Positions 7,891-55,780 of a DNA stretch of 56,065 nt are shown here, one piece after another. The notes under the pieces were generated by a model that worked only from the letters and a program-made list of their open reading frames with translations, did not search any database and was not told where the DNA came from. The stretch lies in assembly GCA_043827085.1 (NCBI GenBank), contig JBDRPO010000005.1, positions 1 through 56,065 on the forward strand. Direction: 5' to 3'. This DNA is from a bacterium (lineage in GTDB: Bacteria > Patescibacteriota > Microgenomatia > UBA1400 > UBA12108). The number at the start of each line of letters is the position of its first letter. The stretch's first letter is position 1. A program made the translations under genes and the position numbers.

Positions 7891-7966
7891 GGGCCGTTAG
7901 CTCACCTGGTAGAGCGCTACTATGGCATAGTAGAGGTAGTCGGTTCGAGTCCGATACGGTCCACCA
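7891..7966 (+). tRNA. tRNA-Ala (anticodon GGC), CCA encoded
   Basis: Cloverleaf folded by hand: acceptor GGGCCGT/ACGGTCC with the G3:U70 Ala identity pair, D stem GCTC/GAGC, anticodon stem CTACT/AGTAG with loop ATGGCAT, T arm GTCGG-TTCGAGT-CCGAT, discriminator A, CCA. Confidence 0.9.
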
Positions 7967-9020
7967 ACTCCCCCACTTCTCCCATTCCGGCAGAGACCCA
8001 AACTAACTCTTTGTGGATCTTTTTAGTAATTTCTGTCTCAATTTTCTCCCGCAAACTCACATCAACCAGTTCCATCTTGTTTACGACTACTATCTCGGGC
8101 TTCTCAGCTAACCCCTTCCCGAACTTCTCTAGTTCCTTCCGCACGACCTGATAATCCTTGATCAACTGACCACTAACATCTTGAGTCTGTAATCTAGTAT
8201 CTGTGAGGATCTCCGAACTGGGCGCTAGTACATGGATCAACATTTTTGTACGCTCGAGGTGTCTTAGAAACCATGGCCCTATGCCCTTCCCTTCCCACGC
8301 ATCTTCAACCACTCCTGGCACGTCCACTAGAATTAAATTCTTCTTCGTCTCACCCTGTGGCAAACTCAATACCCCCAAATTAGGCTCGAGAGTCGTAAAT
8401 GGATACCCCGCAATTTTAGGATTCGCGTTCGTCAATGCTTTGAGTAGTGATGACTTGCCTACGTTTGGTAGTCCCACTATCCCCACGTCCGCGACCACCT
8501 TTAGCTCCAGTAGGAGCCACTTCTCGTCGCCCGGCTTCCCCGCCTCAAACTCCTGTGGGGTCTGGTTCGTTGCCGAACGAAACTGAAAATTCCCCCTGCC
8601 TCCCCTGCCCCCCCACGCCGCCTCAAACCGCTGTCCATGCCGGATCATATCAACCATGAGTCGCCTCCCCTTCATCACCTTTTCAAACATCTCTCGATCC
8701 CGCAAATTGGCTCCAGCGTACTCCTGGCTTATTTCATACACGACCGTCCCAACCGGAACCTTCACCTGAACTTCATCCGTATTCTTCCCGTGCATATTCT
8801 TCCCCCATCCAGGATCAGCATCACGTACCACAAATTTTTTCTTAAAATTAAACTCCACCAAATTTGGCATGTTCTCGTCAGCAACGAGGACTATATCGCC
8901 CCCATCGCCCCCATCACCCCCGTCAGGTCCCCCTTTTGGTTGATACTTGCCGTGCAAGAAATGGACGCTTCCATCGCCCCCATCGCCCGCCTTAATGTAT
9001 ATCCTCGCTAAATCTTTCAT
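7920..9020 (-). CDS. obg: GTPase Obg/CgtA
   Basis: Gly-rich Obg fold (KAGDGGDGSVHF...GGPDGGDGGDGGDIV) and G1 motif GLPNVGKSSLL. SD GGGAG lies upstream. The 3' 47 nt lie antisense to the tRNA-Ala. Confidence 0.9.
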   Translation of the reverse strand: MKDLARIYIKAGDGGDGSVHFLHGKYQPKGGPDGGDGGDGGDIVLVADENMPNLVEFNFKKKFVVRDADPGWGKNMHGKNTDEVQVKVPVGTVVYEISQEYAGANLRDREMFEKVMKGRRLMVDMIRHGQRFEAAWGGRGGRGNFQFRSATNQTPQEFEAGKPGDEKWLLLELKVVADVGIVGLPNVGKSSLLKALTNANPKIAGYPFTTLEPNLGVLSLPQGETKKNLILVDVPGVVEDAWEGKGIGPWFLRHLERTKMLIHVLAPSSEILTDTRLQTQDVSGQLIKDYQVVRKELEKFGKGLAEKPEIVVVNKMELVDVSLREKIETEITKKIHKELVWVSAGMGEVGELVDRIGLEPTTSTMP

Positions 9021-9067
9021 AATCTCCCATATTCTACTCTAATTCTTCATTTTCCTCTAGCTTAAAC

Positions 9068-9093
9068 GATATAATGATTTAAATCATTATATC
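9068..9093. promoter_or_regulatory. Palindrome copy 1: GATATAATGATTTAAATCATTATATC (26 bp, perfect); candidate operator / bidirectional extended -10
   Basis: Perfect dyad, 48 bp upstream of the obg start, overlapping the stop of the EEP gene. It contains TGATATAAT when read on the minus strand. Confidence 0.6.
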
Positions 9094-9818
9094 AACTTTC
9101 TCACCATACCAACTAACGCGCAGTGGTCACTTACTCCCGACACCACTCTCACCTCATTTACTTCGTACTTTGGTGTACTCCAAATGTAGTCTACGACTAG
9201 CTTTAACCTCCCCGGCTCTTTTTTATTTGCGTAATGCAAAACTGGGTCAATAGTGGTTTCAACTCTCAGGGGGATATTGTCTTGAAAATGTCTCGCCAAC
9301 TCAAGATATATCTTATTCCCCCGTGGGATATTAAAGTCACCCGCCAAAACTAGCTCCTGTCCCCGTAATAAATCGATCATCTTCCCCATTTCTTGCCGCT
9401 GCCTCTCCGTCACACTTCCTTTTTCCGTCCACGTCCCGTGGACCACCCCAATCTGGTACTCTCTCCCCGCTTTCTTCACGCCCGTCGTCACAAGTACCGC
9501 CGCATGCTTGTCTTCCCCATATTTCGGCAGGTTGTCCTCACTATACGGCCCCAAATACGTTTTTTTTGTTTCCGAGAGTGGATATTTACTCATAATAACC
9601 TCCCCAAACTTTCGTCCCCCCACGACCAACCCCTCTTCATCTTGATCAGCTAAATACCCTGGCACAAACTCGACGTACGGATACCCCTTTGTCAATTTTG
9701 GTAGCGTATCTTCAAACACCTCCATCATCAGTACCACATCCGCTTGTTCTTGCTGCAAAAACTCCCGCACCATTTTTACATGTTTCTGTCCTTCAATATT
9801 TAACGACACCAATTTCAT
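9087..9818 (-). CDS. Endonuclease/exonuclease/phosphatase (EEP) family protein
   Basis: MKLVSLNIEG at the N-terminus and SDHCALV at the C-terminus. Start chosen at the Met preceded by GGAG (track start is 9836). Confidence 0.65.
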   Translation of the reverse strand: MKLVSLNIEGQKHVKMVREFLQQEQADVVLMMEVFEDTLPKLTKGYPYVEFVPGYLADQDEEGLVVGGRKFGEVIMSKYPLSETKKTYLGPYSEDNLPKYGEDKHAAVLVTTGVKKAGREYQIGVVHGTWTEKGSVTERQRQEMGKMIDLLRGQELVLAGDFNIPRGNKIYLELARHFQDNIPLRVETTIDPVLHYANKKEPGRLKLVVDYIWSTPKYEVNEVRVVSGVSDHCALVGMVRKLI

Positions 9819-9871
9819 GCTCATACTCCAGCACATTATATCCCACTACCCCATTGACAATTCGCTTCTGA

Positions 9872-9907
9872 TTAATGATATAATGATTCAAATCATTATA
9901 TCATTAA
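9872..9907. promoter_or_regulatory. Palindrome copy 2 (36 bp, one central mismatch; core 9877-9902), overlapping a promoter for the YerC-like gene
   Basis: TTAATGATATAATGATTCAAATCATTATATCATTAA. TTGACA at 9854-9859, a 19-nt spacer, and extended -10 TGATATAAT at 9876-9884. It lies 22 bp upstream of ATG 9924. The same TGATATAAT reads on the minus strand toward the EEP gene. Confidence 0.6.
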
Positions 9908-9923
9908 AGAAAAGCTATCCCCT

Positions 9924-10331
9924 ATGTCCCAAATCTCGCGTCGCTACTTAAATCCCAAAGTCGAACAACAAATCTTTAGTACTTTTGTCGAATCTTTTAC
10001 CTCTCTCTCCTCAACCCAAAAAGCTACCGATTTCCTCTATGACCTCCTCTCCCCTGTCGAACAGGTCATGCTTGGCAAACGCCTCGCCATCGCCTACATG
10101 CTCATGAAAGGTTATGCCCAACGCACGGTAGCCGACACCATCAAAGTCTCGCAAGCTACCGTCACAAAAGTTAATGCTTCGCTCAAAATCGGTATGGGCT
10201 ACCGCGCCATTATTTCTCACATGCTCCAAAGAGAAAAAATTGTCGCCTTCTTTGATAAGCTCGAAGAAAAAATTGAGGACATTCTCCCAAAGCGCAAAAT
10301 CTCCTTTAGTATCAACAATAAACACAAATAA
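9924..10331 (+). CDS. TrpR-like / YerC-YecD family DNA-binding protein
   Basis: The pattern ...LLSPVEQVMLGKRLAIAYMLMKGYAQRTVADTIKVSQATVTKVNASLKIGMGY matches the YerC/TrpR HTH (S.ATI.RVNRSL..G..GY). Confidence 0.7.
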   Translation: MSQISRRYLNPKVEQQIFSTFVESFTSLSSTQKATDFLYDLLSPVEQVMLGKRLAIAYMLMKGYAQRTVADTIKVSQATVTKVNASLKIGMGYRAIISHMLQREKIVAFFDKLEEKIEDILPKRKISFSINNKHK

Positions 10332-10356
10332 TTACCCTAATATCATCTACATCAAT

Positions 10357-10384
10357 TGACATAATGATTTAAATCATTATGTCA
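10357..10384. promoter_or_regulatory. Palindrome copy 3: TGACATAATGATTTAAATCATTATGTCA (28 bp, perfect)
   Basis: Lies between the YerC-like stop (10331) and the SPFH gene start (10447). It contains TGACATAAT on both strands. Confidence 0.6.
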
Positions 10385-10446
10385 TCAATCCCTGTTCAAT
10401 TATTTGTGTTATACTTGACTAAATTACGTACAATTGGAGGTCGCTT

Positions 10447-11187
10447 ATGGAATTCTTTATTCCCATTATTATTTTCCTCATCTTGATCTCCCTCAAGCAA
10501 GTCAACCAGTACGAGCGCGGCGTCGTCTACACCATGGGTCGCTTTAGCTACATCATCGGTCCCGGTTGGAAATTCGTCATCCCCATCTTCCAATCCTTCC
10601 GCAAAGTCGACATCCGCACCAAAGCCGCCGACGTCCCCAAGCAGGATACCATTACCAAAGACAACGTCACCTGCAAAATGAACGCCGTCATTTACTACAA
10701 AGTGGTAGACGCCGCCAAAACGATAAACGAAGTCGAAGACGTGACCTACGCCGTCCTCCAGCTCGCCCAAACTACCATGCGCCGCGTGGCTTCCGAGGCA
10801 ACACTCGATGAACTCCTTTCTCAGCGCGAAAAGATCGCCAAAGAAATCTTGAGCCTAGTTGAAAAACACGCCACCTCCTGGGGTATCGACATCCAGGCCG
10901 TTGAACTCAAAGACATCGAACTCCCTGAATCCATGATCCGCACCATGGCCAAACAAGCCGAAGCCGAACGCGAGAAACGCGCCACCATTATCAATAGTCA
11001 GGGAGAACTCATGGCAAGCGAAAACTTAGCCAAAGCCGCCAAAATGCTTGCCACCGCTCCCGGCGCCCTCCACCTGCGCACCCTCAACTCCATCAACGAT
11101 ATCAGTTCTGATCAAAGCAACACCGTAGTCTTCGCCGTACCTCTCGAGGTACTGCGCGCCCTCGAAGGCATCACCAAAAAGAAATGA
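10447..11187 (+). CDS. SPFH/Band 7 (stomatin-like) membrane protein
   Basis: N-terminal TM helix, then QYERGVVYTMGRF...KVDIRT...TKDNV...YYKV, typical of stomatin/QmcA-like proteins. Confidence 0.8.
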   Translation: MEFFIPIIIFLILISLKQVNQYERGVVYTMGRFSYIIGPGWKFVIPIFQSFRKVDIRTKAADVPKQDTITKDNVTCKMNAVIYYKVVDAAKTINEVEDVTYAVLQLAQTTMRRVASEATLDELLSQREKIAKEILSLVEKHATSWGIDIQAVELKDIELPESMIRTMAKQAEAEREKRATIINSQGELMASENLAKAAKMLATAPGALHLRTLNSINDISSDQSNTVVFAVPLEVLRALEGITKKK

Positions 11188-11486
11188 GCTTCTTCTCCCG
11201 CGTCTACGCCCTCTCTCGTCAAATCCCCGAGGGTTACGTCACCACCTACGGTGAACTCGCTCGCGCTCTCGGTACCCGTGACGCCCGTCGCGTCGGCCAC
11301 GCCCTCCACGCCAACCCTGACCCCACTACTCCCTGCCATCGTGTAGTGGCCAAAGATGGCCGTCTCGCCCCTCACTACGCCTTTGGCGGCTCCCTAGAAC
11401 AATACGCCAGATTAAAAGAAGAGGGCGTCACTTTCTTAGATAGGGAACACGTCGATCTGGCTTGCCACTTCTTCCGGTACTCTTGA
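11184..11486 (+). CDS. MGMT-family protein (methylated-DNA-protein-cysteine methyltransferase DNA-binding/active-site domain only)
   Basis: YVTTYGELA...VGHAL..NP....PCHRVV with the PCHRV active-site motif. ATGA overlap with the SPFH gene. Confidence 0.75.
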   Translation: MSFFSRVYALSRQIPEGYVTTYGELARALGTRDARRVGHALHANPDPTTPCHRVVAKDGRLAPHYAFGGSLEQYARLKEEGVTFLDREHVDLACHFFRYS

Positions 11487-11906
11487 TTTCCAGCTCACGT
11501 CCCCTCGCCTCATTAGTTCGCGTATCTTCACCCCCTCAAGTTCATCCCGATTAAATAACCCAGTTTTGGATATTGGATACCCTACATGCTTCATCAAATT
11601 TGTTACCCAATTATTATTCGATACCACAACATCAAATTTTGGCACAAGATGTATTACTTCTTTCACCCATTCTTCATCACTCGGAGTATCTGGTATCGCA
11701 ATAATATTAACCTCTTGTGACACAGCTCCTATCATCCTTTTTCTTGTTTCAAAATCCCACGGATTATCTAACGTTCCTCTGATATTACTACTTCCAATCC
11801 CCACGATCACCGCATCCGCCACGTCAAAACACTTCTTTAAACTATACAGATGGCCATTGTGAAACGGCTGAAACCTCCCGATAAATAATGCGATCTTATA
11901 CTGCAT
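11436..11906 (-). CDS. Nicotinamide-nucleotide adenylyltransferase (archaeal NadM-type cytidylyltransferase fold)
   Basis: N-terminal IGRFQPFHNGH motif, about 156 aa. The 3' end overlaps the convergent MGMT gene by 51 nt. Confidence 0.7.
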   Translation of the reverse strand: MQYKIALFIGRFQPFHNGHLYSLKKCFDVADAVIVGIGSSNIRGTLDNPWDFETRKRMIGAVSQEVNIIAIPDTPSDEEWVKEVIHLVPKFDVVVSNNNWVTNLMKHVGYPISKTGLFNRDELEGVKIRELMRRGDVSWKSRVPEEVASQIDVFPI

Positions 11907-14506: not shown

Positions 14507-14543
14507 ACTTGCCCTCCTATCAATAATATTTGTGCAAACTACT

Positions 14544-14578
14544 AAAATCTAATTTCTGGAATCTAGCTTCTAACTTCC
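14544..14578 (+). repeat. Heptamer array a: AAAATCT AATTTCT GGAATCT AGCTTCT AACTTCC
   Basis: Read directly. Intergenic, 38 nt upstream of the rho start. Confidence 0.85.
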
Positions 14579-15506: not shown

Positions 15507-15842
15507 AAAACTATTGTACCGCAACACATATTCAGTATCGGAGGGCTATGAGCCTGCCCTATCTCACATGCCCCCCGATACTAATCACGCGTCGAGTCAT
15601 TATAGGCTCAAGCACTACAGATAGTGTGTTAGATACACTCTTACACACAAAATATAGCTTGACGGCCCTACAGTGCAGTGTTAAAGTTCTCTTACGCTTG
15701 TGTAGAAATTGAAACATCTACACTTCGTATTTGAATAAGAGCATTGCTACACGTGATCCCGTGCAAATGGAGAATCAGCGGTAGGAATGCTCTTTTCGTT
15801 CGTATCCTACCACCTCTGGTAATCCATGTCAACCTATAACAT
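15507..15842 (-). promoter_or_regulatory. Candidate prs promoter (TTGACA-17-TAGGAT, 15842-15814) plus a roughly 300-nt structured leader
   Basis: On the minus strand, TTGACA is the reverse complement of 15837-15842, followed by a 17-nt spacer and TAGGAT (reverse complement of 15814-15819). Downstream hairpins: 15737-15750/15781-15794, 15700-15706/15717-15723 and 15534-15541/15575-15582. Confidence 0.35.
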
Positions 15843-15957
15843 TTATACTCCCAATATCCACTATATCCCATATAAAATCTTCCTCTGGTTATCCCCTCTT
15901 TTTCGTCATTGTGGATAACTCAAGAATAACTATCACAGAACTTCAAATAATCATGAG

Positions 15958-16098
15958 GTCTGTCATCTCTCACAAGGAAAATTTACGCAAAGCTCAGGCG
16001 AGCCGGTTCCCACCAAAGGCGGGATCGCCTGACTGCGTTCGAGGAAATTCGATCGCTGGATCGAATATTCCGTTTTTCTAGTTGGGAGAGTGACAGAC
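15958..16098. ncRNA. Candidate structured RNA, a three-way junction; class and strand unknown
   Basis: Closing helix GTCTGTCATCTCTC (15958-71) / GAGAGTGACAGAC (16086-98). Hairpin TCAGGCGA (15994-16001) / TCGCCTGA (16025-32). Hairpin GGAAATTCGATC (16043-54) / GATCGAATATTCC (16059-71) with a GCTG loop. No ORF. Confidence 0.4.
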
Positions 16099-16099
16099 A

Positions 16100-17392
16100 T
16101 CACAATGATTTAATAATTTCGCTAACTTTCCGGTGACTACTTCTCGAGTAAAAATTCGTGTAACCCAGTTTACGCGCTTCTTTTTCCCGTTTCTCCCCCC
16201 AACTCACGTTGCGAATCTCGCCAAGTAGCCCCACCTCCCCCACCGCAGCCGTGTTTTTTGGTAACGGTTTTCCGAGCGCCGAGCTCGCGATTGCAAGCGC
16301 AATGGCGAGGTCAACCGCCGGCTCCTTTACCGTCAGTCCCCCCGCGATCTTTACGAAAACGTCTTTCGTTCCGAGCGATAAGCGTGTATATTTTTGTAAG
16401 ACTCCAAGAAGGATCTGTACTCTCCTCACATCCACTCCCTGCGACACACGGCGCGGCACCGGCAGCTCGGAATCCACTACAAGTGCCTGCACCTCCAAAA
16501 GTACCGGCCGCGTCCCCTCCATAACTCCCGCAACCGCCGACCCCACACTCCCTTCCTCTCGCTCAGAGAGAAATAATTCACTTGGGTTCTCCACCTCTTG
16601 CATACCTGATTCAACCATCCGGAACACCCCCACCTCGTCCGTCGCCCCAAACCTATTCTTTTGGGTCCTGAGGAGTCGCAGGTCATAGTACCGGTCCCCC
16701 GTGAGCTCGAGCACACAGTCCACCATATGCTCAAGCACCTTAGGTCCCGCCATCTCGCCGTCTTTTGTTACGTGTCCAACAAGCATGATTGGCACATTTT
16801 TGTTCTTTGCAAAGCCAATAAGGCGCCCTGTACACTCGCGGATTTGACTGATCGACCCCGCTAATCCTGGTAAATCGTCGGAATACAAAGTTTGCACCGA
16901 ATCAATAATTACCAAAGACAAATCCAGCTTGATTATTGTCGCGATAATTGCATCCACATTCGTCTCCGCAAGCATTTTCAAATCCTTCCCCCCTCCCAGC
17001 CTCTCCACCCGCAGCTTTACTTGTCCCGAACTCTCCTCGCCACAAACATACACCGTTTTATTTATGTTCAAAGATAGCTGCGTCAGCAAAGTACTCTTTC
17101 CTATCCCCGGCTCTCCAATCAGCAAGTTTACTTCCCCCGGCACTAGTCCTCCCCCAAGTACCAAATCAAGCTCCCCAATCCCCGTTTTGAGCCGCTCTCC
17201 AACTTTCGCGTCCACTTCCGCCAGTCCCAGTAGCTTTGCCCCACTAACATCTAACTTCTTACGTCTAACATCTCTCACAGAAAGCACGCTTTCTACGAGC
17301 GTATTCCACTTCCCACACTCTCCGCACTGCCCCGCCCACTTCGGTGATTGCGCTCCGCAACTTTGACATTCATACACCACGCTCGACTTCAT
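16100..17392 (-). CDS. radA: DNA repair protein RadA/Sms
   Basis: Zn finger CQSCGAQSPKWAGQCGECGKWNT, Walker A GEPGIGKSTLL, KNRFG motif and a Lon-like C-terminal domain. Confidence 0.9.
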   Translation of the reverse strand: MKSSVVYECQSCGAQSPKWAGQCGECGKWNTLVESVLSVRDVRRKKLDVSGAKLLGLAEVDAKVGERLKTGIGELDLVLGGGLVPGEVNLLIGEPGIGKSTLLTQLSLNINKTVYVCGEESSGQVKLRVERLGGGKDLKMLAETNVDAIIATIIKLDLSLVIIDSVQTLYSDDLPGLAGSISQIRECTGRLIGFAKNKNVPIMLVGHVTKDGEMAGPKVLEHMVDCVLELTGDRYYDLRLLRTQKNRFGATDEVGVFRMVESGMQEVENPSELFLSEREEGSVGSAVAGVMEGTRPVLLEVQALVVDSELPVPRRVSQGVDVRRVQILLGVLQKYTRLSLGTKDVFVKIAGGLTVKEPAVDLAIALAIASSALGKPLPKNTAAVGEVGLLGEIRNVSWGEKREKEARKLGYTNFYSRSSHRKVSEIIKSL

Positions 17393-17436
17393 ATCCCTAT
17401 TCTAACATTCAGGAAAGTCTTCACCGTCACTGAAAA

Positions 17437-20738: not shown

Positions 20739-20849
20739 ATTTTTCTTATCTTCCCTTGGGCTTAGCAAGTGCACCTGAAATTCCAGTGTGAAGCTAAATC
20801 AAGATGCAAGTATTCTACCTCGAGAACTAAAATTCCACAACCACCCACT

Positions 20850-20877
20850 AGAGTCTAGGATCTAAAATCTAACGTCT
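20850..20877 (+). repeat. Heptamer array b: AGAGTCT AGGATCT AAAATCT AACGTCT
   Basis: Read directly. Intergenic, upstream of rpsA. Confidence 0.85.
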
Positions 20878-21076
20878 ACTTCCCCATTCCCGGGATCAAC
20901 TGAGCTGGCTGGATCAGATAAATATCCGCTGGGGTCTGGAGCGAAATGATAAAGTACCGAACCATCACAATGAGAGCCCCTATCCCCACCGCCAAGATCA
21001 ACATTCCCAAAAATTGGTTTCTCATTACCATTGGCTTAACTACTGTCGTTACTTTTTTCTTGGTTTTCTTGGGCAT
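20876..21076 (-). CDS. Small membrane protein (66 aa), hypothetical
   Basis: Lys-rich N-terminus followed by one TM helix (FLGMLILAVGIGALIVMV). Confidence 0.45.
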   Translation of the reverse strand: MPKKTKKKVTTVVKPMVMRNQFLGMLILAVGIGALIVMVRYFIISLQTPADIYLIQPAQLIPGMGK

Positions 21077-22137: not shown

Positions 22138-22155
22138 ATCTGGCTATTCTAAATG

Positions 22156-31163: not shown

Positions 31164-32929
31164 ATCGTTCCCGCTATTTGTTTCACTTCTGCAAGCGTCG
31201 TAATATCAGTAAGTTTTTTATCATCTCGAAACTTGATTAGACGTGGGAACCGGAGTCCATATCCACTAGAATGCAATTTTGAGGTTGTGATCTCGTCCGC
31301 CGCAATCTCCACAATCACCTTGGGTTCCACCCATACGTCAGGTATTAGCGTTTTAGCCACTATATACTCTAGCATCTGGCTTCTAGTTTCTATCTTCTTT
31401 AAGCGATCATACAATTCCCCAAATTGTAGATCGCTAAGTCCCGTCCCCACCTTTGCCACCGTCACAATTTTCTTCCCACTCACCACCCCCACTAAAAAAG
31501 CACCAATCCCAAACTTCTGTCGCTTCCCCTTACCGGTATAATACCCCATGACTACTGCGTCAATTGTATCCAACAGTTTCCCCGTTTGTCCTTCTTCCTC
31601 TTTAAACTTGACCCAGTTAAAGCTTTTTCGCCCACTCTCATACTTGCCATCAATCTTTTTGACCAGCGCTCCCTCCAGTCCCTTCTCCAGTTGTTTTTTG
31701 TGGTATTCGCGCAACTGTCTGGGATCGCCCGTCACGATTTTCTCGTCCATCACCAAGACATTCCCCGCTTTGATCGTCGCCTCAAGTATCTCTCGCCGCT
31801 TCGAGAGCGGCAATTCGATCAAACTTTGCCCATCTTTATATAAAATATCAAACACATAAAACCGGAGTGGCACCGAGCTTTGTGCCGCCTCTACCCCGTG
31901 TTTGCGCTTTCGCGTGATCGTCAACTGAAATGGTACCATCTTGCCAGTTGTTGGATCATACCCCACCGCCTCCGCGTCAAGGATTACTTCCTGAGCCTCG
32001 ATCTGCTCCCCCATGCTCGCGAGCTCCGGGAACATTTGGCTACTCTCATCCAAACTCCGAGTGTAGGTCTTCACCCAAAATTCTGATTTCTCCTCTTTGA
32101 ACAATCCCGCCACCATTTGTTGTCTATCATCCGAGGGTAGTATTTGTCTTGAAAAATGAATCTGCACCCTAGTTCCGTCAAATTTCGGCTCGACTTGCAC
32201 CTTCCCCATCTTTTCTATCATCTCATCAGGAGTGTGGAGCCGCTGAGCCAGCGCCGGAATGACCGGCCTCCCTATTTTCACCTTGACGTTCTTTATCGCT
32301 CCCGCGATCCCCATCTCTTTTACCAACCGGGACAGCTCCCCCACATCCGGCGCAATTTGGTACGCCGACTCTAGTACTTTTTTCCCATCCTTCGTCCCAT
32401 TCTCCAGATACGACAGAGCGTCCAAAACAGTACTATCCAAAAACCCGAGGCGCAGCCGCCCCGCTACCATCCGCACGATATATTTTGCCGAAACTGGACC
32501 TACTTCTCTTAGGAGCTTCCCCAATCTCTCTACTTTCCGCTGCTGGCTACCCTTCCCCGAATCCCGCGCGATCACCACTAATTCTTCAAATACACTGTTA
32601 ATACTATAATCTGGAATCTGGAATCTAGAATCTTTTTTTATTCCTTCCGCCACCTCTCCCAAATCCCCCTTGTCTTTCATCAGTTGTGCTACTTCTTCGA
32701 CTCCTCTGCCCACTCCCCACGCAACCGCACGGATAATCATCTTCTCGGCAAGATTAAACTCAATACTATCGTATAGTGGCCCGAGCCTCCCGACTGCCAG
32801 ATACGTCGCTGCTGCAATTTCATCTTTGTCTAATTCCTTAAACAGTTCCGCCAGAATTGTTGTCTTAGCGTTACGTAAACTCGTCGCCTCTATTTTTTCA
32901 AAGTACTTGACCAACTCTGCAAACTTCAT
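31160..32929 (-). CDS. lig: ATP-dependent DNA ligase (archaeal/eukaryotic Lig1-like, three-domain)
   Basis: Adenylation motif I EPKFDGTR. The N-terminal DNA-binding domain aligns by eye with archaeal ligases (GDLGE...GKGSQ..K). 589 aa. Confidence 0.85.
   Translation of the reverse strand: MKFAELVKYFEKIEATSLRNAKTTILAELFKELDKDEIAAATYLAVGRLGPLYDSIEFNLAEKMIIRAVAWGVGRGVEEVAQLMKDKGDLGEVAEGIKKDSRFQIPDYSINSVFEELVVIARDSGKGSQQRKVERLGKLLREVGPVSAKYIVRMVAGRLRLGFLDSTVLDALSYLENGTKDGKKVLESAYQIAPDVGELSRLVKEMGIAGAIKNVKVKIGRPVIPALAQRLHTPDEMIEKMGKVQVEPKFDGTRVQIHFSRQILPSDDRQQMVAGLFKEEKSEFWVKTYTRSLDESSQMFPELASMGEQIEAQEVILDAEAVGYDPTTGKMVPFQLTITRKRKHGVEAAQSSVPLRFYVFDILYKDGQSLIELPLSKRREILEATIKAGNVLVMDEKIVTGDPRQLREYHKKQLEKGLEGALVKKIDGKYESGRKSFNWVKFKEEEGQTGKLLDTIDAVVMGYYTGKGKRQKFGIGAFLVGVVSGKKIVTVAKVGTGLSDLQFGELYDRLKKIETRSQMLEYIVAKTLIPDVWVEPKVIVEIAADEITTSKLHSSGYGLRFPRLIKFRDDKKLTDITTLAEVKQIAGTI
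32606..32633 (+). repeat. Heptamer array e (inside lig): ATAATCT GGAATCT GGAATCT AGAATCT
   Basis: Read directly. It encodes DSRFQIPDY in a linker of native length. Confidence 0.85.
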
Positions 32930-36037: not shown

Positions 36038-36048
36038 TAATTATGACT

Positions 36049-36076
36049 AAAATCTGGTATCTGGAATCTGGAATCT
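36049..36076 (+). repeat. Heptamer array f: AAAATCT GGTATCT GGAATCT GGAATCT
   Basis: Read directly, 3 nt upstream of ATG 36080. 36052-36069 is a perfect 18-bp inverted repeat of 36285-36302. Confidence 0.9.
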
Positions 36077-36079
36077 AAT

Positions 36080-36274
36080 ATGAACACTGCCGCCGACTCT
36101 TCTTTCCTCATGATGCTCTTTATCCTCCCCTCTCTTTTTGGGTTAACTTTAATCGGCGAAGGCGTGAACAAAATCATGAACTACGATAACCACGGCTGGA
36201 TCGGAGTCTCCGTCGGCGGCATCTTCGTCACTATCATCCTCATCGCGTACTTTATGTTTTCAACAAAGACTTAA
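36080..36274 (+). CDS. Small two-TM membrane protein (64 aa), hypothetical
   Basis: Two hydrophobic helices. Bracketed by the inverted heptamer arrays f and g. Confidence 0.45.
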   Translation: MNTAADSSFLMMLFILPSLFGLTLIGEGVNKIMNYDNHGWIGVSVGGIFVTIILIAYFMFSTKT

Positions 36275-36284
36275 GGTTGAAAAC

Positions 36285-36312
36285 AGATTCCAGATACCAG
36301 ATTCTAGATTCC
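36285..36312 (-). repeat. Heptamer array g, the only inverted copy: AGATTCC AGATACC AGATTCT AGATTCC on the plus strand
   Basis: Read directly. It overlaps the 3' end of the four-helix-bundle pseudogene. Confidence 0.9.
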
Positions 36313-36669
36313 AGTTTTTGACGCTTTAATCAAACCAAACATCATCTTTTGGATTTCAATCACTCTTGACAACAAAGCATCTATCACAGTTTGATCCTGC
36401 AAATATCCCACATCTCGCACAATGTAAATTTGATTTCTCACTTCCGTCAAAGAACCCATGGCCATATGGAAAAATTGTATTTTTTCTTTGGAACTCTGTC
36501 TACCAAATCCTTCAGCAATATTGCTTGTTATTTATACGCTGGCTCGTCTCAGTTGATCAGCTAGACCATATCTCTCAAAACTTGGAAACTTTGCAACTAA
36601 TTTATAAATTTCAACCACTAAAACATGAGTCTTTTGCCAAACAAACAAATCAGTAAAATCTTTTATCAC
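36304..36669 (-). pseudogene. Four-helix-bundle (23S rRNA IVS / Avd-like) gene with one in-frame TAA (codon 46, nt 36532-36534)
   Basis: Hand translation: (GTG)IKDFTDLFVWQKTHVLVVEIYKLVAKFPSFERYGLADQLRRASV*ITSNIAEGFGRQSSKEKIQFFHMAMGSLTEVRNQIYIVRDVGYL...KTGI*. Absent from the ORF track because of the stop. Confidence 0.75.
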
Positions 36670-36684
36670 TCCCCTACCCCCACT

Positions 36685-36712
36685 AGAGTCTGATATCTAG
36701 AGTCTGGAGTCT
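36685..36712 (+). repeat. Heptamer array h: AGAGTCT GATATCT AGAGTCT GGAGTCT
   Basis: Read directly. Intergenic. Confidence 0.85.
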
Positions 36713-36726
36713 ACATTCGGCCACTT

Positions 36727-46992: not shown

Positions 46993-47345
46993 TGCCTGAA
47001 TTGTACCTCATTACACGGCCTAATTTCTCCTACACATTATCTACTCCTTGAAGGATGTATAAAAAAACAATAGTACTATCGGACTTAATTCTGTTTCTAT
47101 AACAACGGCGTCATAGTCACAACAGAATTGCACGTTAACATCACAGCCATCTGATTTAAAAAGTTTCCTATATTTTTTGTTTTTGTCACATCCGACTCAT
47201 TTCCCCTCATCTATAGGGTAAAAAATCCACTTTTGGATAAACGGATAACCAAACAAGAAAAATAGTCAACAAACCAGATCAGACTCTCAGCCGCGCGGCG
47301 GTCATGATGAGAAGCCATTCTTCTCCTAATTAGGAAGGAGTACGA

Positions 47346-47567
47346 ATGCCGTACTTTAGACCTCCACCCTGGGCTATGCCAGATCCTCGATTTGGCAATT
47401 TGCCAAACCCGCGTGATTTCTACATCAGCGCGGACGGTCGCGTTTTCCTCAACCCACAAGATGCCATCAGTGCAAGTTTGGGTTTTGAAGACACTTCCGG
47501 CACGGGCGCAGGTTGCAGCCAAGATCCACGCAACATCCCCTTGTTGCCTCCGTATCTTTGCCGCTAA
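47346..47567 (+). CDS. Small Pro-rich hypothetical protein (73 aa)
   Basis: Strong SD GGAAGGAG lies 5 nt before the ATG. The overlapping minus-strand ORF 47211-47642 has an implausible composition. Confidence 0.45.
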   Translation: MPYFRPPPWAMPDPRFGNLPNPRDFYISADGRVFLNPQDAISASLGFEDTSGTGAGCSQDPRNIPLLPPYLCR

Positions 47568-47584
47568 TACCTGAGCTGTGATAA

Positions 47585-48712: not shown

Positions 48713-49513
48713 TTACTTCTGGCAATTCGTACACACCCACGTCCCTCTCCCTCCCACTACTATTCGCCGCAGCGGCATCCCACATTTATTGCATGGCTCC
48801 CCAGTCCGCCCATATACCAAAAATTCCTTTTGATACGACCCCTGTCCCCCATATGCATCGCGAAATGTGTTGTCCGAAGCGCCTCCGAGCGTCAGTCCCC
48901 GCTCCAAAACCCGACACAAACTGTCCCGCAGTTTTTTCACTTCTTTAACCCCCAAACTATTTGCAGGACGCCGCGGATCTATCCCGCTCTCCCACAATCC
49001 ATCGTTAGCGTAAATATTTCCTACCCCAGCTAACAAATTTTGATCAAGTATCGATTCTTTGATTGATCTCTTCGTCTTTTGCAATCTGCGCAACAGCTCA
49101 ATATCAGTAATCTCCCATGGCCCAGGACCCATTTTTTGTTTTAAACTGCCCACTGCCAACTGCACACTGTCAACCACTTTTATATATCCAAACATTCGTG
49201 TATCCCAGTAGTAAATTTTGCGCCCATCCGCGAGTTTGATTATCACTCTCGTATGATCCGCTGTTTCATACCACAAATTATTTATCACCAACCTCCCCGT
49301 CATTTTCAAATGGATCATGAGTCCCCTGCCAGACTCAAAGTACACAAACAAATACTTCCCCACCCTGCCCATCTCCACTATCCTCTCTCCTTTTAGCTCT
49401 TTACTCCCCTCATAGCATTTCTCCCGTCTCGCCTCCACTCCCACTATCACACTTCCGACTAGCTCTTTGGCTAGTTGTTTGCGGATTATCTCAACCTCAG
49501 GTAATTCTGGCAT
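48713..49513 (-). CDS. mutM: Formamidopyrimidine-DNA glycosylase (Fpg/Nei family)
   Basis: N-terminal MPELPEVE and C-terminal zinc finger CNKCG...CTNCQ. Start moved from 49612 to the conserved Pro2 Met. Confidence 0.9.
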   Translation of the reverse strand: MPELPEVEIIRKQLAKELVGSVIVGVEARREKCYEGSKELKGERIVEMGRVGKYLFVYFESGRGLMIHLKMTGRLVINNLWYETADHTRVIIKLADGRKIYYWDTRMFGYIKVVDSVQLAVGSLKQKMGPGPWEITDIELLRRLQKTKRSIKESILDQNLLAGVGNIYANDGLWESGIDPRRPANSLGVKEVKKLRDSLCRVLERGLTLGGASDNTFRDAYGGQGSYQKEFLVYGRTGEPCNKCGMPLRRIVVGGRGTWVCTNCQK

Positions 49514-49514
49514 A

Positions 49515-49910
49515 TTATTCGAGTCGTCTCTCCTCCAGTCGTGCGCGAACGTACAAAAGTGGGCAAAGTACAAGTACACAGTACCACGCTCCAGCCACGG
49601 ATCCATTCGCAAACGACAGTCCCAAAAAAGTCAGCATGATGGCCTTGTACATTGGGTGTTTAAGGTAGCCATACACTCCCCGCGTGACTCGTTTCTGGGT
49701 CCGCGGCAGCACCCCAAAGCTACTACCCAAATGTAGGTAGCTGAGGATCCACAACCCTATTCCCGTAACTGCTCCGATAAGTCCCCCAATTCGATACTCT
49801 AGGGGGATCTGCATTCGCTCGCCGTATACAATCAGCCACAATCCCCCCAAATACACTAATGGGATCCCCACCGTCCCATAAAACTCCCCCACATTTCTGA
49901 GCAATTTCAT
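49515..49910 (-). CDS. ICMT/PEMT-like membrane methyltransferase family protein (short)
   Basis: TRGVYGYLKHPMY...ARLEERRL C-terminal signature and 3-4 TM helices. Confidence 0.6.
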   Translation of the reverse strand: MKLLRNVGEFYGTVGIPLVYLGGLWLIVYGERMQIPLEYRIGGLIGAVTGIGLWILSYLHLGSSFGVLPRTQKRVTRGVYGYLKHPMYKAIMLTFLGLSFANGSVAGAWYCVLVLCPLLYVRARLEERRLE

Positions 49911-49928: not shown

Positions 49929-49958
49929 ATGACATAATGATTTAAATCATTATGTCAT
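49929..49958. promoter_or_regulatory. Palindrome copy 4: ATGACATAATGATTTAAATCATTATGTCAT (30 bp, perfect)
   Basis: Lies 19 bp upstream of start 49910 and overlaps the stop of the GT4 gene. TGACATAAT reads on the minus strand. Confidence 0.6.
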
Positions 49959-52091: not shown

Positions 52092-52514
52092 TTATTTTTT
52101 TACCAAAAAATCCAAATGTTTTTTTATTTCTTCAATCTTTTTGTCCTGCTCATCCAATCGCTCGAGGATCCGTCTCATGTGAAAGTCCTCCTGGTACCGT
52201 AACAGTTCCACCGACACAAACGCCATCACCGCCCCAAACAAAACTACTCCAAACACCTCTAGTAGTACCGCGATTACCTTCCCCATCCCCGTGACCGGCA
52301 CCATATCCCCGTACCCTACCCCCGTCACCGTCGTAATCGCAAACCATAGTCCATCTCCCTCATTTTTGATCCTTGCTCCCGCTACCGAACTCTCGATCGG
52401 TGCAATCACAAGTCCCAACAGGAGTACTGCCGCAAACAAAACAAACAAAATCTTCCGAAATCTCCCGCTATGCGAGAGTTTTAAAGCTACCTGTCTCACC
52501 TGACTATTATTCAT
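52092..52514 (-). CDS. Small two-TM potassium channel (KcsA-like pore)
   Basis: Selectivity filter TTVTGVGYGD flanked by two TM helices. C-terminal coiled-coil tail. Confidence 0.8.
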   Translation of the reverse strand: MNNSQVRQVALKLSHSGRFRKILFVLFAAVLLLGLVIAPIESSVAGARIKNEGDGLWFAITTVTGVGYGDMVPVTGMGKVIAVLLEVFGVVLFGAVMAFVSVELLRYQEDFHMRRILERLDEQDKKIEEIKKHLDFLVKK

Positions 52515-55500: not shown

Positions 55501-55719
55501 TTGGTTTTTGATATCCTCCATCGCTTGGGTCAAGGTCAGGGTCACATCTTGCGCCATCCCCCCAAACCAACTCATCACGGCCGGTACAAAGAGAAATAGG
55601 ATCAGGCTCCACACAATCATTTTCTTGAGGTCAAAGCGAAAACTCCACACCTTCACTGGCTTTGCTCCTAGCGGCAATTTCACTTCTGGAACTTTCTTTT
55701 GTTCTTTAGTCTTCGCCAT
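52507..55719 (-). CDS. ftsH: ATP-dependent zinc metalloprotease FtsH, interrupted by an intein in the Walker A motif
   Basis: GPAGVGK[intein][16 protein letters not shown]. Walker [33 protein letters not shown] and the zinc site HEAGHAV. 644 aa without the intein. Confidence 0.95.
53737..55014 (-). mobile_element. Intein (426 aa) with a LAGLIDADG homing-endonuclease domain
   Basis: Cys1 (TGT 55014-55012), block B TFEH, LAGLIDADG motifs [11 protein letters not shown] and [13 protein letters not shown]-terminal HN (53742-53737), and +1 Thr, the conserved T of GKT. Confidence 0.9.
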
Positions 55720-55780
55720 ATCAGCTATTCTACCAGAAGTTAGGTAAGCTCGACAGCATACAGAACATTAAATGGGAGTT

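What the first reader, a model, noticed from the sequence alone, without database searches (positions are those of the whole stretch)
9068..10384. A 26-36 bp palindrome occurs four times and brackets a TrpR/YerC-like regulator gene: candidate autoregulated mini-regulon built on back-to-back extended -10 boxes
The consensus is TGAYATAATGATTTAAATCATTATRTCA.
- Copy 1 (9068-9093, perfect) lies 48 bp upstream of obg.
- Copy 2 (9872-9907, 36 bp with one central mismatch) lies 22 bp upstream of the YerC/TrpR-like gene and faces the divergent EEP gene.
- Copy 3 (10357-10384, perfect) lies just after the regulator gene and upstream of the SPFH-MGMT operon.
- Copy 4 (49929-49958, 30 bp, perfect) is 40 kb away, 19 bp upstream of the ICMT-like/mutM operon.

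Each half-site reads TGAYATAAT, an extended -10 (TGnTATAAT), on its own strand. The dyad is therefore both a possible bidirectional promoter core and an ideal operator for a dimeric HTH protein. The only DNA-binding protein gene next to it is the one it flanks on both sides. A perfect 28-mer recurring four times cannot be chance.
Basis: partly seen in the sequence, partly recalled or inferred. Interest (0 to 1): 0.65.

Follow-up and report, generated by a model that had tools for sequence, protein, structure and literature searches.

The report
Dispersed palindrome bound by TrpR-like regulator
A perfectly conserved 28-bp DNA palindrome always sits on the promoter of a small TrpR-like regulator gene in a group of uncultured groundwater bacteria, so it is most likely that protein's binding site. 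Its other copies lie at gene ends rather than at promoters, which suggests a barrier role more than a classical regulon.

Summary
Four near-perfect copies of TGAYATAATGATTTAAATCATTATRTCA occur in the window, where none is expected by chance.

The element is not private to this genome. The same dyad occurs at more than 120 loci in CPR (Microgenomates-type) metagenome contigs, at about 3-6 copies per MAG.

In 10 of 10 loci found through the protein alone, a palindrome lies directly upstream of the TrpR-like gene. It overlaps a -10 hexamer that usually has a TTGACA -35 box 17-19 nt upstream. In distant homologues the palindrome sequence changes together with the protein. Autoregulation through this operator is therefore well supported.

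The "mini-regulon built on back-to-back -10 boxes" is only partly supported:
- Outside the regulator's own promoter, the dyad hugs the stop codon of the upstream gene.
- There it lies upstream of separate, conserved promoters.
- It is conserved between convergent genes (truB/Ham1) in three genomes.
- Its neighbours are unrelated housekeeping genes.
- In several lineages it loses the -10 consensus while keeping its symmetry.

Best reading: it is the operator of a new "long TrpR-like" family, used for self-repression and probably as a protein-bound boundary or barrier element at gene ends. No RNA data were available to test this.

The parts
9067..9094 (.). Palindrome copy 1. It is perfect over 9068-9093, contains the EEP stop codon (9087-9089), and lies 46 nt from the obg ATG.
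   Evidence: An orthologous site lies at the obg/EEP junction in L001, L005 and L033.
9872..9907 (.). Palindrome copy 2 (28-mer core 9876-9903, one central mismatch). It is the inferred operator overlapping the -10 element and start site of the TrpR-like gene's promoter, and it faces the divergent EEP gene.
   Evidence: A palindrome occupies the same position in 10 of 10 protein-ascertained loci.
9854..9884 (+). Inferred promoter of the TrpR-like gene: -35 TTGACA at 9854-9859, a 19-nt spacer, and the extended -10 TGaTATAAT at 9876-9884. The expected start site is near the dyad centre (about 9890).
   Evidence: The sequence itself. The same -35 box and spacing (17-19 nt) occur in L005, L003, L024, L025 and L149, and L027 has TTTACA-17-TACCAT.
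9924..10331 (+). Gene for the 135-aa TrpR-fold HTH protein ("long TrpR-like" family). Its C-terminus is diverged and shortened compared with the 146-aa consensus.
   Evidence: Pfam PF01371, 49.4 bits. The fold matches 3KOR, 3FRW, 3G1C and 1TRO.
10357..10384 (.). Palindrome copy 3. It lies 25 nt after the TrpR-like stop codon and 22 nt upstream of the TG of the SPFH promoter.
   Evidence: An orthologous copy with the same spacing occurs in L005. The copy is absent in L149 and L001, where the segment is a 60-75-nt indel.
10407..10415 (+). The SPFH operon's own extended -10 promoter, TGtTATACT. It is independent of the palindrome.
   Evidence: It is invariant in window, L149, L005 and L001, whether or not the palindrome is present.
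49929..49958 (.). Palindrome copy 4 (30 bp, perfect). It contains the stop codon of the GT4 glycosyltransferase gene and lies 18-19 nt upstream of the PEMT/ICMT-like gene, which is followed by mutM.
   Evidence: Orthologous sites at GT4/mutM or GT4/ICMT junctions occur in L011, L058, L119 and L127.
9087..9836 (-). EEP-family (PF03372) gene, bracketed by copies 1 and 2.
   Evidence: It is often but not always next to the regulator in relatives.
7920..9020 (-). obg, downstream of copy 1. It has its own -10-like TAGAAT (9031-9036) 10 nt before the ATG.
10447..11486 (+). SPFH/Band-7 gene followed by an overlapping MGMT-type (PCHRV) gene, both downstream of copy 3.
48713..49910 (-). PEMT/ICMT-like gene (49515-49910) and mutM/fpg, downstream of copy 4. 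The probable true mutM start is MPELPEVE, near 49513.

Best explanation
The dyad is a 28-34-bp site, a-d-TGAYAYAATGATTT|AAATCATTRTRTCA-h-t. It is most likely the specific DNA site of the adjacent TrpR-fold helix-turn-helix protein. That protein belongs to a large, uncharacterised family of about 146-aa "long TrpR-like" proteins found in CPR/Microgenomates bacteria.

At the protein's own gene (copy 2), the half-site away from the gene doubles as the extended -10 element of a promoter with a proper -35 box. A bound dimer, or a higher oligomer, would therefore cover the -10 element and the start site and repress the gene's own transcription.

The other copies are not promoters. Each abuts or contains the stop codon of the upstream gene and lies upstream of a separate promoter of the next gene. 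In relatives the dyad also fills the gap between convergent genes. At these sites the bound protein most likely blocks transcription from crossing the gene boundary (a roadblock or insulator) and/or modulates the neighbouring promoter. A second copy just after the regulator's own gene would end its transcript or allow operator-operator looping.

Shown here: the sequence, its conservation, its association with the gene, the promoter geometry and the site contexts.

Inferred: protein binding (about 0.8), self-repression (about 0.7) and the barrier role (about 0.35). The ligand is unknown.
For: (1) Association with the gene.
- All 10 loci found through the protein alone carry a palindrome just upstream of the gene. 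These are the window plus P0011, P0029, P0042, P0038, P0047, P0058, P0054, P0045 and P0002. In nine of them the dyad centre lies about 21-39 nt from the ATG, and in L149 about 60 nt.
- Of about 101 sites found through the DNA pattern alone, roughly a fifth flank a TrpR-like gene.

(2) The site changes with the protein.
- Homologues of 49-53% identity, in a different gene neighbourhood, carry related but altered dyads. L026 has TGTTATCATGTTTT|AAAACATGATAACA. L027 has CCATGTTCT|AGAACATAG, both upstream and downstream of the gene.
- The three proteins with QPT at the start of the recognition helix all pair with the TGATTAAAT variant.
- The CAYFZD genome carries that variant at all three of its sites.

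(3) Promoter geometry. TTGAC(A/C/G) lies 17-19 nt upstream of the half-site hexamer in window, L005, L003, L024, L025 and L149.

(4) Protein family.
- PF01371 hit.
- The recognition helix ATVTKVNASLK aligns with TrpR ATITRGSNSLK.
- The AF2 model (pLDDT 82.5) matches the YerC/HisR and TrpR structures.
- TrpR and HisR bind 18-20-bp palindromes and often autoregulate (PMC9413887).

(5) Sequence, not only pairing, is conserved at every copy. The inner 16 bp were invariant in all 23 sites found with patterns or searches that left them free or only partly fixed, which calls for a sequence-specific reader.

(6) Sites that cannot be promoters are under selection.
- The convergent truB/Ham1 junction keeps the dyad in L010, L017 and L104, although the neighbouring proteins are only 40-74% identical.
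- In co-directional junctions, 29 of 31 sites are closer to the upstream stop codon (median -3 nt) than to the downstream start (median 46 nt).
- Downstream promoters are conserved whether or not the dyad is present.

(7) Canonical intrinsic terminators are no more frequent than chance in this genome: 14 found against 13.6 expected.
Against: - No binding, expression or transcript-end data exist. The only metatranscriptomes from the same study hold no reads for this locus.
- The protein-DNA covariation may reflect only a few independent evolutionary events.
- Divergent family members with different recognition-helix residues still keep the ATGATTTAAATCAT core.
- Perfect 28-bp, all-or-none sites are far more conserved than an HTH dimer normally requires.
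- In genomes that hold two variants, 14 of 15 sites carry the same variant in both halves.
- Both of the last two points hint at a hairpin, a cruciform or a templated copying process that protein binding alone does not explain.
- "Never inside ORFs" is trivial, because the dyad has stop codons in all six frames.
- Closeness to stop codons is also what neutral insertion into a compact genome would produce.
- Some MAGs with sites showed no TrpR-like gene in the loci retrieved (CAXCDZ). MAG incompleteness could not be excluded.
Confidence: 0.6

Rival explanations
1. First reader's model. Each dyad is a bidirectional core promoter made of two back-to-back extended -10 boxes. The TrpR-like repressor shuts it off, so that obg, EEP, SPFH-MGMT and ICMT-mutM form one small regulon.
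For: - The half-sites read TGnTATAAT or TGnCATAAT in the window.
- At the regulator's own gene the hexamer has a correctly spaced -35 box.
- About 30% of the distances from a site to a neighbouring non-TrpR gene start are under 30 nt, leaving no room for another promoter.
Against: - Position 2 of the hexamer (the -11 A) is T or C in about 19% of sites and in whole lineages, while the symmetry is kept.
- SPFH, ftsH and the 18.7-kb gene keep their own conserved promoters, and the dyad lies 22-40 nt further upstream.
- 11 of 47 sites are in convergent junctions, against a background of 15%. Divergent junctions are not enriched.
- The neighbouring genes are functionally unrelated.
Confidence: 0.12
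2. The dyad acts at the RNA level. It forms a 12-16-bp AU-rich hairpin at the 3' end of transcripts, serving as a bidirectional terminator or 3'-end stabiliser, independently of the TrpR-like protein.
For: - Predicted hairpins have free energies of -13.6 to -20.4 kcal/mol, with z-scores of -2.8 to -7.1.
- The sites hug stop codons and occur between convergent genes.
- The two halves co-vary: Watson-Crick symmetry is 0.90-0.95 observed against 0.48-0.68 expected at the variable positions.
- Canonical terminators are not enriched in this genome.
Against: - Most copies have no U-tract.
- A structural hairpin would not need the same sequence at every site and in every genome.
- 27% of sites carry transversion mismatches, and there is no G.U bias on the transcribed strand (30 mismatches against 9 G.U).
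- The constant position on the regulator's promoter in divergent junctions, with the sequence tracking the protein lineage, is left unexplained.
Confidence: 0.12
3. The dyad is a REP- or MITE-like selfish or domesticated element that spreads by a templated copying mechanism. The TrpR-like gene, flanked by copies much as a RAYT transposase gene is flanked by REPs, is its partner rather than a regulator of the neighbouring genes.
For: - The gene is bracketed by copies at both its 5' and 3' ends in many lineages: window, L005, L024, L025, L027, L050, L056, L076, L077, L090, L100 and L126.
- Copies are exact and all-or-none, which point mutation cannot create.
- Presence or absence differs at syntenic junctions between relatives.
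- The sites are extragenic and next to stop codons.
Against: - The flanked protein is only an HTH protein, with no nuclease or transposase domain.
- Copy number is only about 3-6 per MAG.
- No target-site duplications are evident in the flanks.
- Sites persist at orthologous junctions across deep divergence.
- The regulator's own locus is syntenic and stable.
- There is no match in 2.9 million viral contigs.
Confidence: 0.15

Closest known systems
E. coli TrpR and its trp/aroH/trpR operators
   Same: Both are small dimeric TrpR-fold HTH proteins (PF01371). Both use a palindromic operator that overlaps the -10 element and start site, and both have an autoregulated gene. The recognition helices are similar: ATITRGSNSLK in TrpR against ATVTKVNASLK here.
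   Different: - The protein scores below the TrpR equivalog cut-off (31.9 against 67.25 bits).
- It has about 45 extra C-terminal residues forming two helices.
- Its site is 28-34 bp and perfect, not about 18-20 bp and degenerate.
- No trp genes are among the neighbours.
- Most sites lie at gene ends.
- The ligand is unknown. The residues aligned with TrpR R84 and G85 are K and V.
HisR (B. subtilis YerC family), PMC9413887
   Same: HisR supplies the closest solved structures (3G1C, 3FRW, 3KOR). It belongs to the TrpR family, binds a 20-bp palindrome, and has a site before its own gene in about half of genomes.
   Different: - The HisR motif, cacTTTAn6TAAAgtg, is unrelated.
- HisR proteins are under 100 aa, and their regulon consists of his biosynthesis and transport genes.
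- The protein scores below the YerC/YecD cut-off (29.3 against 42.2 bits).
- Short YerC-like genes in the same metagenomes (L032, L089) have no dyad upstream.
REP elements with RAYT genes (REPtrons)
   Same: Both are dispersed extragenic palindromes found at gene ends and between convergent genes. In both cases a single-copy gene is flanked by copies, and copies are homogeneous within a genome.
   Different: Here the flanked gene has no HUH/Y1 transposase domain. The palindromes are perfect and AT-rich, there are only a few copies per genome, and sites are conserved at orthologous junctions.
Protein roadblocks to transcription (LacI, CodY and CcpA roadblocks in bacteria; mTERF and Reb1/TTF-I terminators in eukaryotes). 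From my own knowledge, not tested here.
   Same: In both cases a sequence-specific DNA-binding protein sits at the end of a transcription unit and could stop RNA polymerase.
   Different: To my knowledge no dedicated, genome-wide roadblock-terminator protein has been described in bacteria. The barrier function here is inferred from site positions only.
B. subtilis RTP/Ter and ParB/parS-type systems. From my own knowledge.
   Same: A small dimeric DNA-binding protein has a handful of long specific sites, some of them next to its own gene, where they autoregulate it.
   Different: The sites here are symmetric and so have no polarity. They are only weakly clustered: 23 of 101 sites have a neighbour orthologous to a window gene, and about half of those are at the regulator locus itself.

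Membership tests
TrpR family (Pfam PF01371) | Sequence match above Pfam's gathering score | tested here: met
   49.4 bits against a cut-off of 27, E = 4.9e-13.
TrpR family (Pfam PF01371) | TrpR-like all-helical fold with a helix-turn-helix | tested here: met
   The AF2 model has pLDDT 82.5. The top Foldseek hits are 3KOR, 3FRW, 3G1C and 1TRO, with TM (target) 0.63-0.72.
TrpR proper (NCBIfam TIGR01321 equivalog) | Score above the curated equivalog cut-off | tested here: not met
   31.9 bits against 67.25.
YerC/YecD = HisR (NCBIfam TIGR02531) | Score above the curated cut-off | tested here: not met
   29.3 bits against 42.2 for the window protein; 29.6 for P0006 and 40.0 for P0058.
YerC/YecD = HisR | Operator cacTTTAn6TAAAgtg next to his biosynthesis or transport genes | tested here: not met
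   The motif is different, and no his genes appear among 130 neighbouring proteins (PMC9413887).
TrpR-type autoregulated repressor (mode of action) | Palindromic site overlapping the regulator's own core promoter | tested here: met
   10 of 10 protein-ascertained loci have the site. A -35 box lies 17-19 nt upstream of the half-site hexamer in six of the ten loci, the window included. Binding itself is inferred.
TrpR-type autoregulated repressor (mode of action) | Binding depends on a small-molecule corepressor | not testable with these tools
   Only the aligned pocket residues could be inspected: S43, R53 and S are conserved, while the residues aligned with TrpR R84 and G85 are K and V.
Sigma-70 extended -10 promoter | TGnTAnnnT hexamer conserved, and placed upstream of a gene on the same strand | tested here: inconclusive
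   Met at the regulator's own promoter. Not met in lineages with TGATTAAAT, TTTAAT or TTCAAT, nor at convergent junctions.
Intrinsic (Rho-independent) terminator | G+C-rich stem followed by a U-tract | tested here: not met
   The stems are AU-rich and most copies have no T-run. The consensus scan does not report them.
REP/RAYT (REPtron) | The flanked gene encodes a Y1/HUH transposase, and there are tens to hundreds of imperfect REPs | tested here: not met
   The flanked gene is HTH only, and there are 3-6 sites per MAG. The bracketing layout itself is present.

The most novel reading that the evidence does not exclude
CPR/Microgenomates genomes lack recognisable intrinsic terminators. They may use a dedicated TrpR-fold protein together with a dispersed, exactly copied palindrome that carries stop codons in all six frames. 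This pair would act as a protein-dependent boundary element for transcription units, working in both directions and possibly responding to a ligand. The palindrome would spread by a templated, REP-like mechanism while co-evolving with its binding protein.
Probability: 0.25. Interest if true: 0.8.

Novelty: new variant of a known kind. Interest (0 to 1): 0.55.

Why it matters
Almost nothing is known about transcriptional control in CPR/Patescibacteria, which cannot be grown alone and encode very few regulators.

This finding pairs one of their widespread but unnamed regulator families with its DNA site. The family has 819 clusters at 50% identity with E <= 1e-10, and nearly all of the 150 best hits are about 145-150 aa long. 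That pairing makes the family directly testable by EMSA, DAP-seq or heterologous reporter assays.

If the copies at gene ends prove to be protein-dependent barriers, this would be a mode of defining transcription units not described in bacteria. It would also help explain how these genomes manage with few canonical terminators.

If instead the sites are ordinary operators, this is a tidy new TrpR-family regulon with an unknown signal.

Tried and rejected
- RNA evidence. Two run searches and one read-laying were made. The only metatranscriptomes from the same study have no coverage of 7900-11500 apart from the tRNA, so transcript 5' and 3' ends could not be read.
- DNA-repair regulon idea (EEP, MGMT, MutM, Ham1, ComM/YraN). 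Rejected, because the neighbours of 130 sites spread over 51-60 Pfam families with no dominant theme. The EEP protein matches no NCBIfam model.
- Replication-terminus or macrodomain site (RTP/Ter, matS-like). This was prompted by the convergent switch in gene orientation at about 7.9 kb. Only 23 of 101 sites have a neighbour orthologous to a window gene, and about half of those are at the regulator locus itself. Clustering is therefore weak.
- Selection for an RNA hairpin, tested through G.U bias at asymmetric sites. No bias was found.
- Known RNA families. Rfam finds only tRNA-Ala in the window.
- Phage or mobile origin. There are 0 matches in the viral contigs, and no target-site duplications are visible.
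- Canonical terminators. They occur no more often than chance.
- "Never inside ORFs" as evidence. Discarded, because the dyad closes all six reading frames.
Full report
**Observation**

The core ATAATGATTTAAATCATTAT occurs at 9071-9090, 9880-9899 (one central mismatch), 10361-10380 and 49934-49953. None of 100 dinucleotide-preserving shuffles gives a single match. Reading the sequence gives these extents:
- Copy 1 is perfect over 9068-9093.
- Copy 2 spans 9872-9907, 36 bp with one mismatch.
- Copy 3 spans 10357-10384, 28 bp perfect.
- Copy 4 spans 49929-49958, 30 bp perfect.

Searches at up to three mismatches with the 20-mer and the 14-mer core, and up to two with the half-site, find no degenerate extra copies. 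The element is either present and essentially perfect, or absent.

Pfam confirms the gene calls:
- obg, 7920-9020 (-)
- an EEP-family gene, 9087-9836 (-)
- a Trp_repressor-family gene, 9924-10331 (+)
- SPFH, 10447-11187 (+), with an overlapping MGMT-type gene
- a PEMT/ICMT-like gene, 49515-49910 (-), followed by mutM

- The EEP stop codon lies inside copy 1, and the stop codon of the glycosyltransferase gene lies inside copy 4.
- The dyad carries stop codons in all three frames on both strands (TGA at positions 1-3, TAA at 6-8, TAA at 14-16).

**The regulator and its relatives**

The 135-aa protein has 59 homologues in the word-indexed search. Nearly all are 146 aa, and the few that carry a source name are from Microgenomates or Woesebacteria MAGs. 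The window protein and its closest relative share a diverged, shortened C-terminus.

Family placement:
- The protein passes Pfam PF01371.
- It falls below the NCBIfam cut-offs for both TrpR and YerC/YecD.
- The closest solved structures are the HisR/YerC proteins 3G1C, 3FRW and 3KOR, followed by E. coli TrpR.
- An AlphaFold model (pLDDT 82.5) shows the TrpR core plus two extra C-terminal helices at residues 92-120 and 128-144.
- The recognition helix aligns with that of TrpR.
- A full HMM scan finds 819 representative clusters at E <= 1e-10. Most of the 150 best hits are about 145-150 aa and are matched over most of their length.

This is therefore a large, unnamed "long TrpR-like" family. B. 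subtilis YerC is the histidine repressor HisR. It binds a 20-bp palindrome, cacTTTAn6TAAAgtg, and is often autoregulated (PMC9413887). The present motif and its gene neighbours are different.

**The dyad travels with the gene**

I fetched the DNA around nine homologues chosen only by their protein sequence. Every one has a palindrome directly upstream of the gene.

Where synteny is conserved (obg - EEP - regulator - SPFH), the dyad also recurs at two other junctions:
- the obg/EEP junction, in L001 and L005
- the regulator/SPFH junction, in L005, L025, and in degenerate form in L024

The inner 16 bp, AATGATTTAAATCATT, are invariant. The outer triplet varies, nearly always symmetrically:
- TGAYATAAT in the window
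- TGATAYAAT in L005
- TGATTAAAT in L003, L024 and L025
- TGATATCAT in L028

Two homologues of only 49-53% identity sit in an unrelated gene neighbourhood. They carry related but distinct dyads: L026 has TGTTATCATGTTTT|AAAACATGATAACA twice upstream, and L027 has CCATGTTCT|AGAACATAG both upstream and downstream. All three proteins with QPT at the start of the recognition helix pair with the TGATTAAAT variant.

Still more divergent long TrpR-like genes turned up in the motif-ascertained loci (L050, L056, L077, L090, L100, L126). They are bracketed by a dyad at both their 5' and 3' ends. Short YerC-like genes in the same data are not.

**Promoter geometry at the regulator gene**

When the upstream regions are aligned on the dyad centre, TTGACA/TTGACC/TTGACG lies 17-19 nt upstream of the hexamer in the half-site away from the gene. 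This holds in the window (9854-9859; TATAAT at 9879-9884, preceded by TG), L005, L003, L024, L025 and L149. L027 has TTTACA-17-TACCAT.

That half-site is therefore the -10 element. Transcription should start near the dyad centre, and a Shine-Dalgarno sequence follows in most relatives. A protein bound to the dyad would occlude the -10 element and the start site, which is classical self-repression.

**The other copies are not promoters**

One scan of GTDB representative genomes found 17 loci, with 3-6 sites per MAG. One scan of JGI metagenomes hit its 120-locus limit. After removing duplicates there are 116 sites.

With stringent gene calls, the 47 sites not next to the regulator divide as follows:

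| Junction type | Sites | Background junctions |
|---|---|---|
| Co-directional | 31 | 572 |
| Convergent | 11 | 115 |
| Divergent | 5 | 93 |

The sites show no preference for promoter-bearing junctions and no avoidance of promoter-free ones.

In co-directional junctions, 29 of 31 sites lie closer to the upstream stop codon (median -3 nt) than to the downstream start (median 46 nt). The overlaps of -3, -8 and -16 nt correspond exactly to the dyad's own stop codons.

Downstream genes keep their own promoters:
- SPFH's TGnTATACT is invariant in window, L149, L005 and L001. The dyad-containing segment is a 60-75-nt indel upstream of it.
- ftsH keeps TGGTAGAAT 7 nt before the ATG, both with the dyad (L007) and without it (window).
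- The gene at 18.7 kb keeps TTGACA-17-TA(A/T)TAT.

The -10 consensus inside the dyad is lost in several lineages, where the hexamer becomes TTAAAT, TTTAAT, TTCAAT, TCCAAT or TCTAAT. The symmetry is kept throughout.

The neighbouring genes are unrelated housekeeping genes: aminoacyl-tRNA synthetases, obg, DnaJ, PRPP synthetase, MutM, FtsH, TruB, Ham1, NUDIX, SufS, MreB, TGT and others. They fall into 51 Pfam families among 61 start-adjacent proteins and 60 families among 69 stop-adjacent proteins.

**The non-promoter sites are nevertheless selected**

Clustering sites by orthology of their neighbours shows the dyad retained at the same junction across genomes whose flanking proteins are only 40-80% identical:
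- obg/EEP, 4 genomes
- regulator/SPFH, 3 genomes
- GT4/mutM or GT4/ICMT, in the window and four further loci (L011, L058, L119, L127)
- sufD/sufS, 2 genomes
- the junction upstream of PRPP synthetase, 2 genomes
- the convergent truB/Ham1 junction, 3 genomes (L010, L017, L104), each with its own dyad variant

A site that fills the gap between two convergent stop codons cannot be a promoter or an operator of one. Its conservation points to a function at gene ends.

**RNA or DNA?**

As RNA, the dyads would fold into hairpins of -13.6 to -20.4 kcal/mol. Several points argue against a purely structural RNA role:
- Most copies lack a U-tract.
- The same sequence, not only the pairing, is kept at every site and in every genome.
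- 27% of sites carry one to three mismatches, including transversions, with no G.U bias on the transcribed strand.

These features fit a sequence-specific DNA reader better than a structural RNA element.

Canonical terminators occur at chance level in this genome (14 found against 13.6 expected). A protein-bound barrier at some gene boundaries is therefore plausible, but it is inferred only from site positions.

**What remains odd**

- The sites are far more exact than a dimeric HTH protein needs.
- A 28-bp exact match cannot arise by point mutation, yet presence or absence differs between relatives at syntenic junctions. New copies must therefore be made by some templated process.
- In the genomes that hold two variants (window, CAXCDZ, CAJAUT), 14 of 15 sites have the same variant in both halves. 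Independent evolution of half-sites would not give this.
- Together with the bracketing of the regulator gene, these features recall REP/RAYT systems. However, the flanked protein has no catalytic domain, copy number is low, no target-site duplications are seen, the motif is absent from viral contigs, and sites persist at orthologous junctions.

I keep a REP-like or domesticated-element reading as a rival, and as part of the most novel reading that the evidence does not exclude.

**Dead ends**

- No metatranscriptome covers the locus.
- Rfam finds only tRNA-Ala.
- A DNA-repair regulon is not supported.
- A terminus-specific site family is not supported either.

**Verdict**

- The dyad is very probably the operator of the flanked TrpR-like protein, and copy 2 autoregulates it through a half-site that serves as the -10 element.
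- Copies 1, 3 and 4 are gene-boundary sites rather than back-to-back promoters, and there is no coherent regulon.

I class this as a new variant of a known kind: a TrpR-family repressor with a palindromic operator, but with an unusual genome-wide use of that operator. Experimental binding and transcription assays would settle it quickly.

Noticed in passing
window 14541-14573, 20847-20879, 32603-32635, 36046-36078, 36276-36315, 36682-36714 (and about 5 more): A second repeat family made of tandem heptamers (AATCTGG, AATCTAG, AGTCTGG). It has about 11 copies. About half of the copies are intergenic, including an inverted pair flanking 36079-36275. Its function is unknown; it may be a protein- or RNA-binding array.
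   Followed up: no
window 52507-55719 (-): The FtsH gene carries an intein with a LAGLIDADG homing-endonuclease domain inserted in the AAA module (Pfam Intein_splicing and LAGLIDADG_3). The orthologue in L007 is the same length.
   Followed up: partly
window, many gene starts (e.g. 55720-55735, 9021-9036, 17393-17410, 22138-22155): Many genes have a TAnAAT box, often preceded by TG, ending only 7-12 nt before the ATG. This suggests leaderless or very short-leader mRNAs are common in this genome. An example is ftsH, with TGGTAGAAT, 7 nt, then ATG, conserved in L007.
   Followed up: partly
window 7891-7966 (+) against obg 7920-9020 (-): tRNA-Ala(GGC) overlaps the 3' end of the obg reading frame on the opposite strand. 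The last roughly 15 codons of the obg ORF (…GLEPTTSTMP) are probably antisense tRNA sequence rather than real coding sequence. Gene orientation also switches from + to - at this point.
   Followed up: no
window 15528-16099 and 46993-47584: Two gene-free gaps of 572 and 592 nt. Neither has an Rfam match, even at E <= 1. They could hold unannotated RNAs or small genes.
   Followed up: partly
L026 15545-15565 and 16285-16313, flanking 15580-16266: A Y1_Tnp (IS200/RAYT-type) gene is flanked by inverted copies of a different palindrome (TTACAGGGAC…GTCCCTGTAA). This is a classical REP/RAYT- or IS200-like layout, on the same contig as a distant TrpR-like gene.
   Followed up: no
window 10280-10331 compared with homologues (alignment A1): The window's regulator and its closest relative (P0002, L149) have lost the conserved C-terminal tail PPKGANWSxHYKR…KKSF found in the 146-aa family members. 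In the window the ORF runs seven codons further than in L149, into the segment that carries copy 3.
   Followed up: partly
L008 (QNAG01, labelled Zixibacteria) and L013 (QMKU01, labelled Epsilonproteobacteria): Two MAGs labelled as non-CPR phyla each hold one short contig with a typical dyad. The L008 contig has the same sufD/sufS junction that carries the dyad in another contig (L072). These are probably mis-binned CPR contigs.
   Followed up: no
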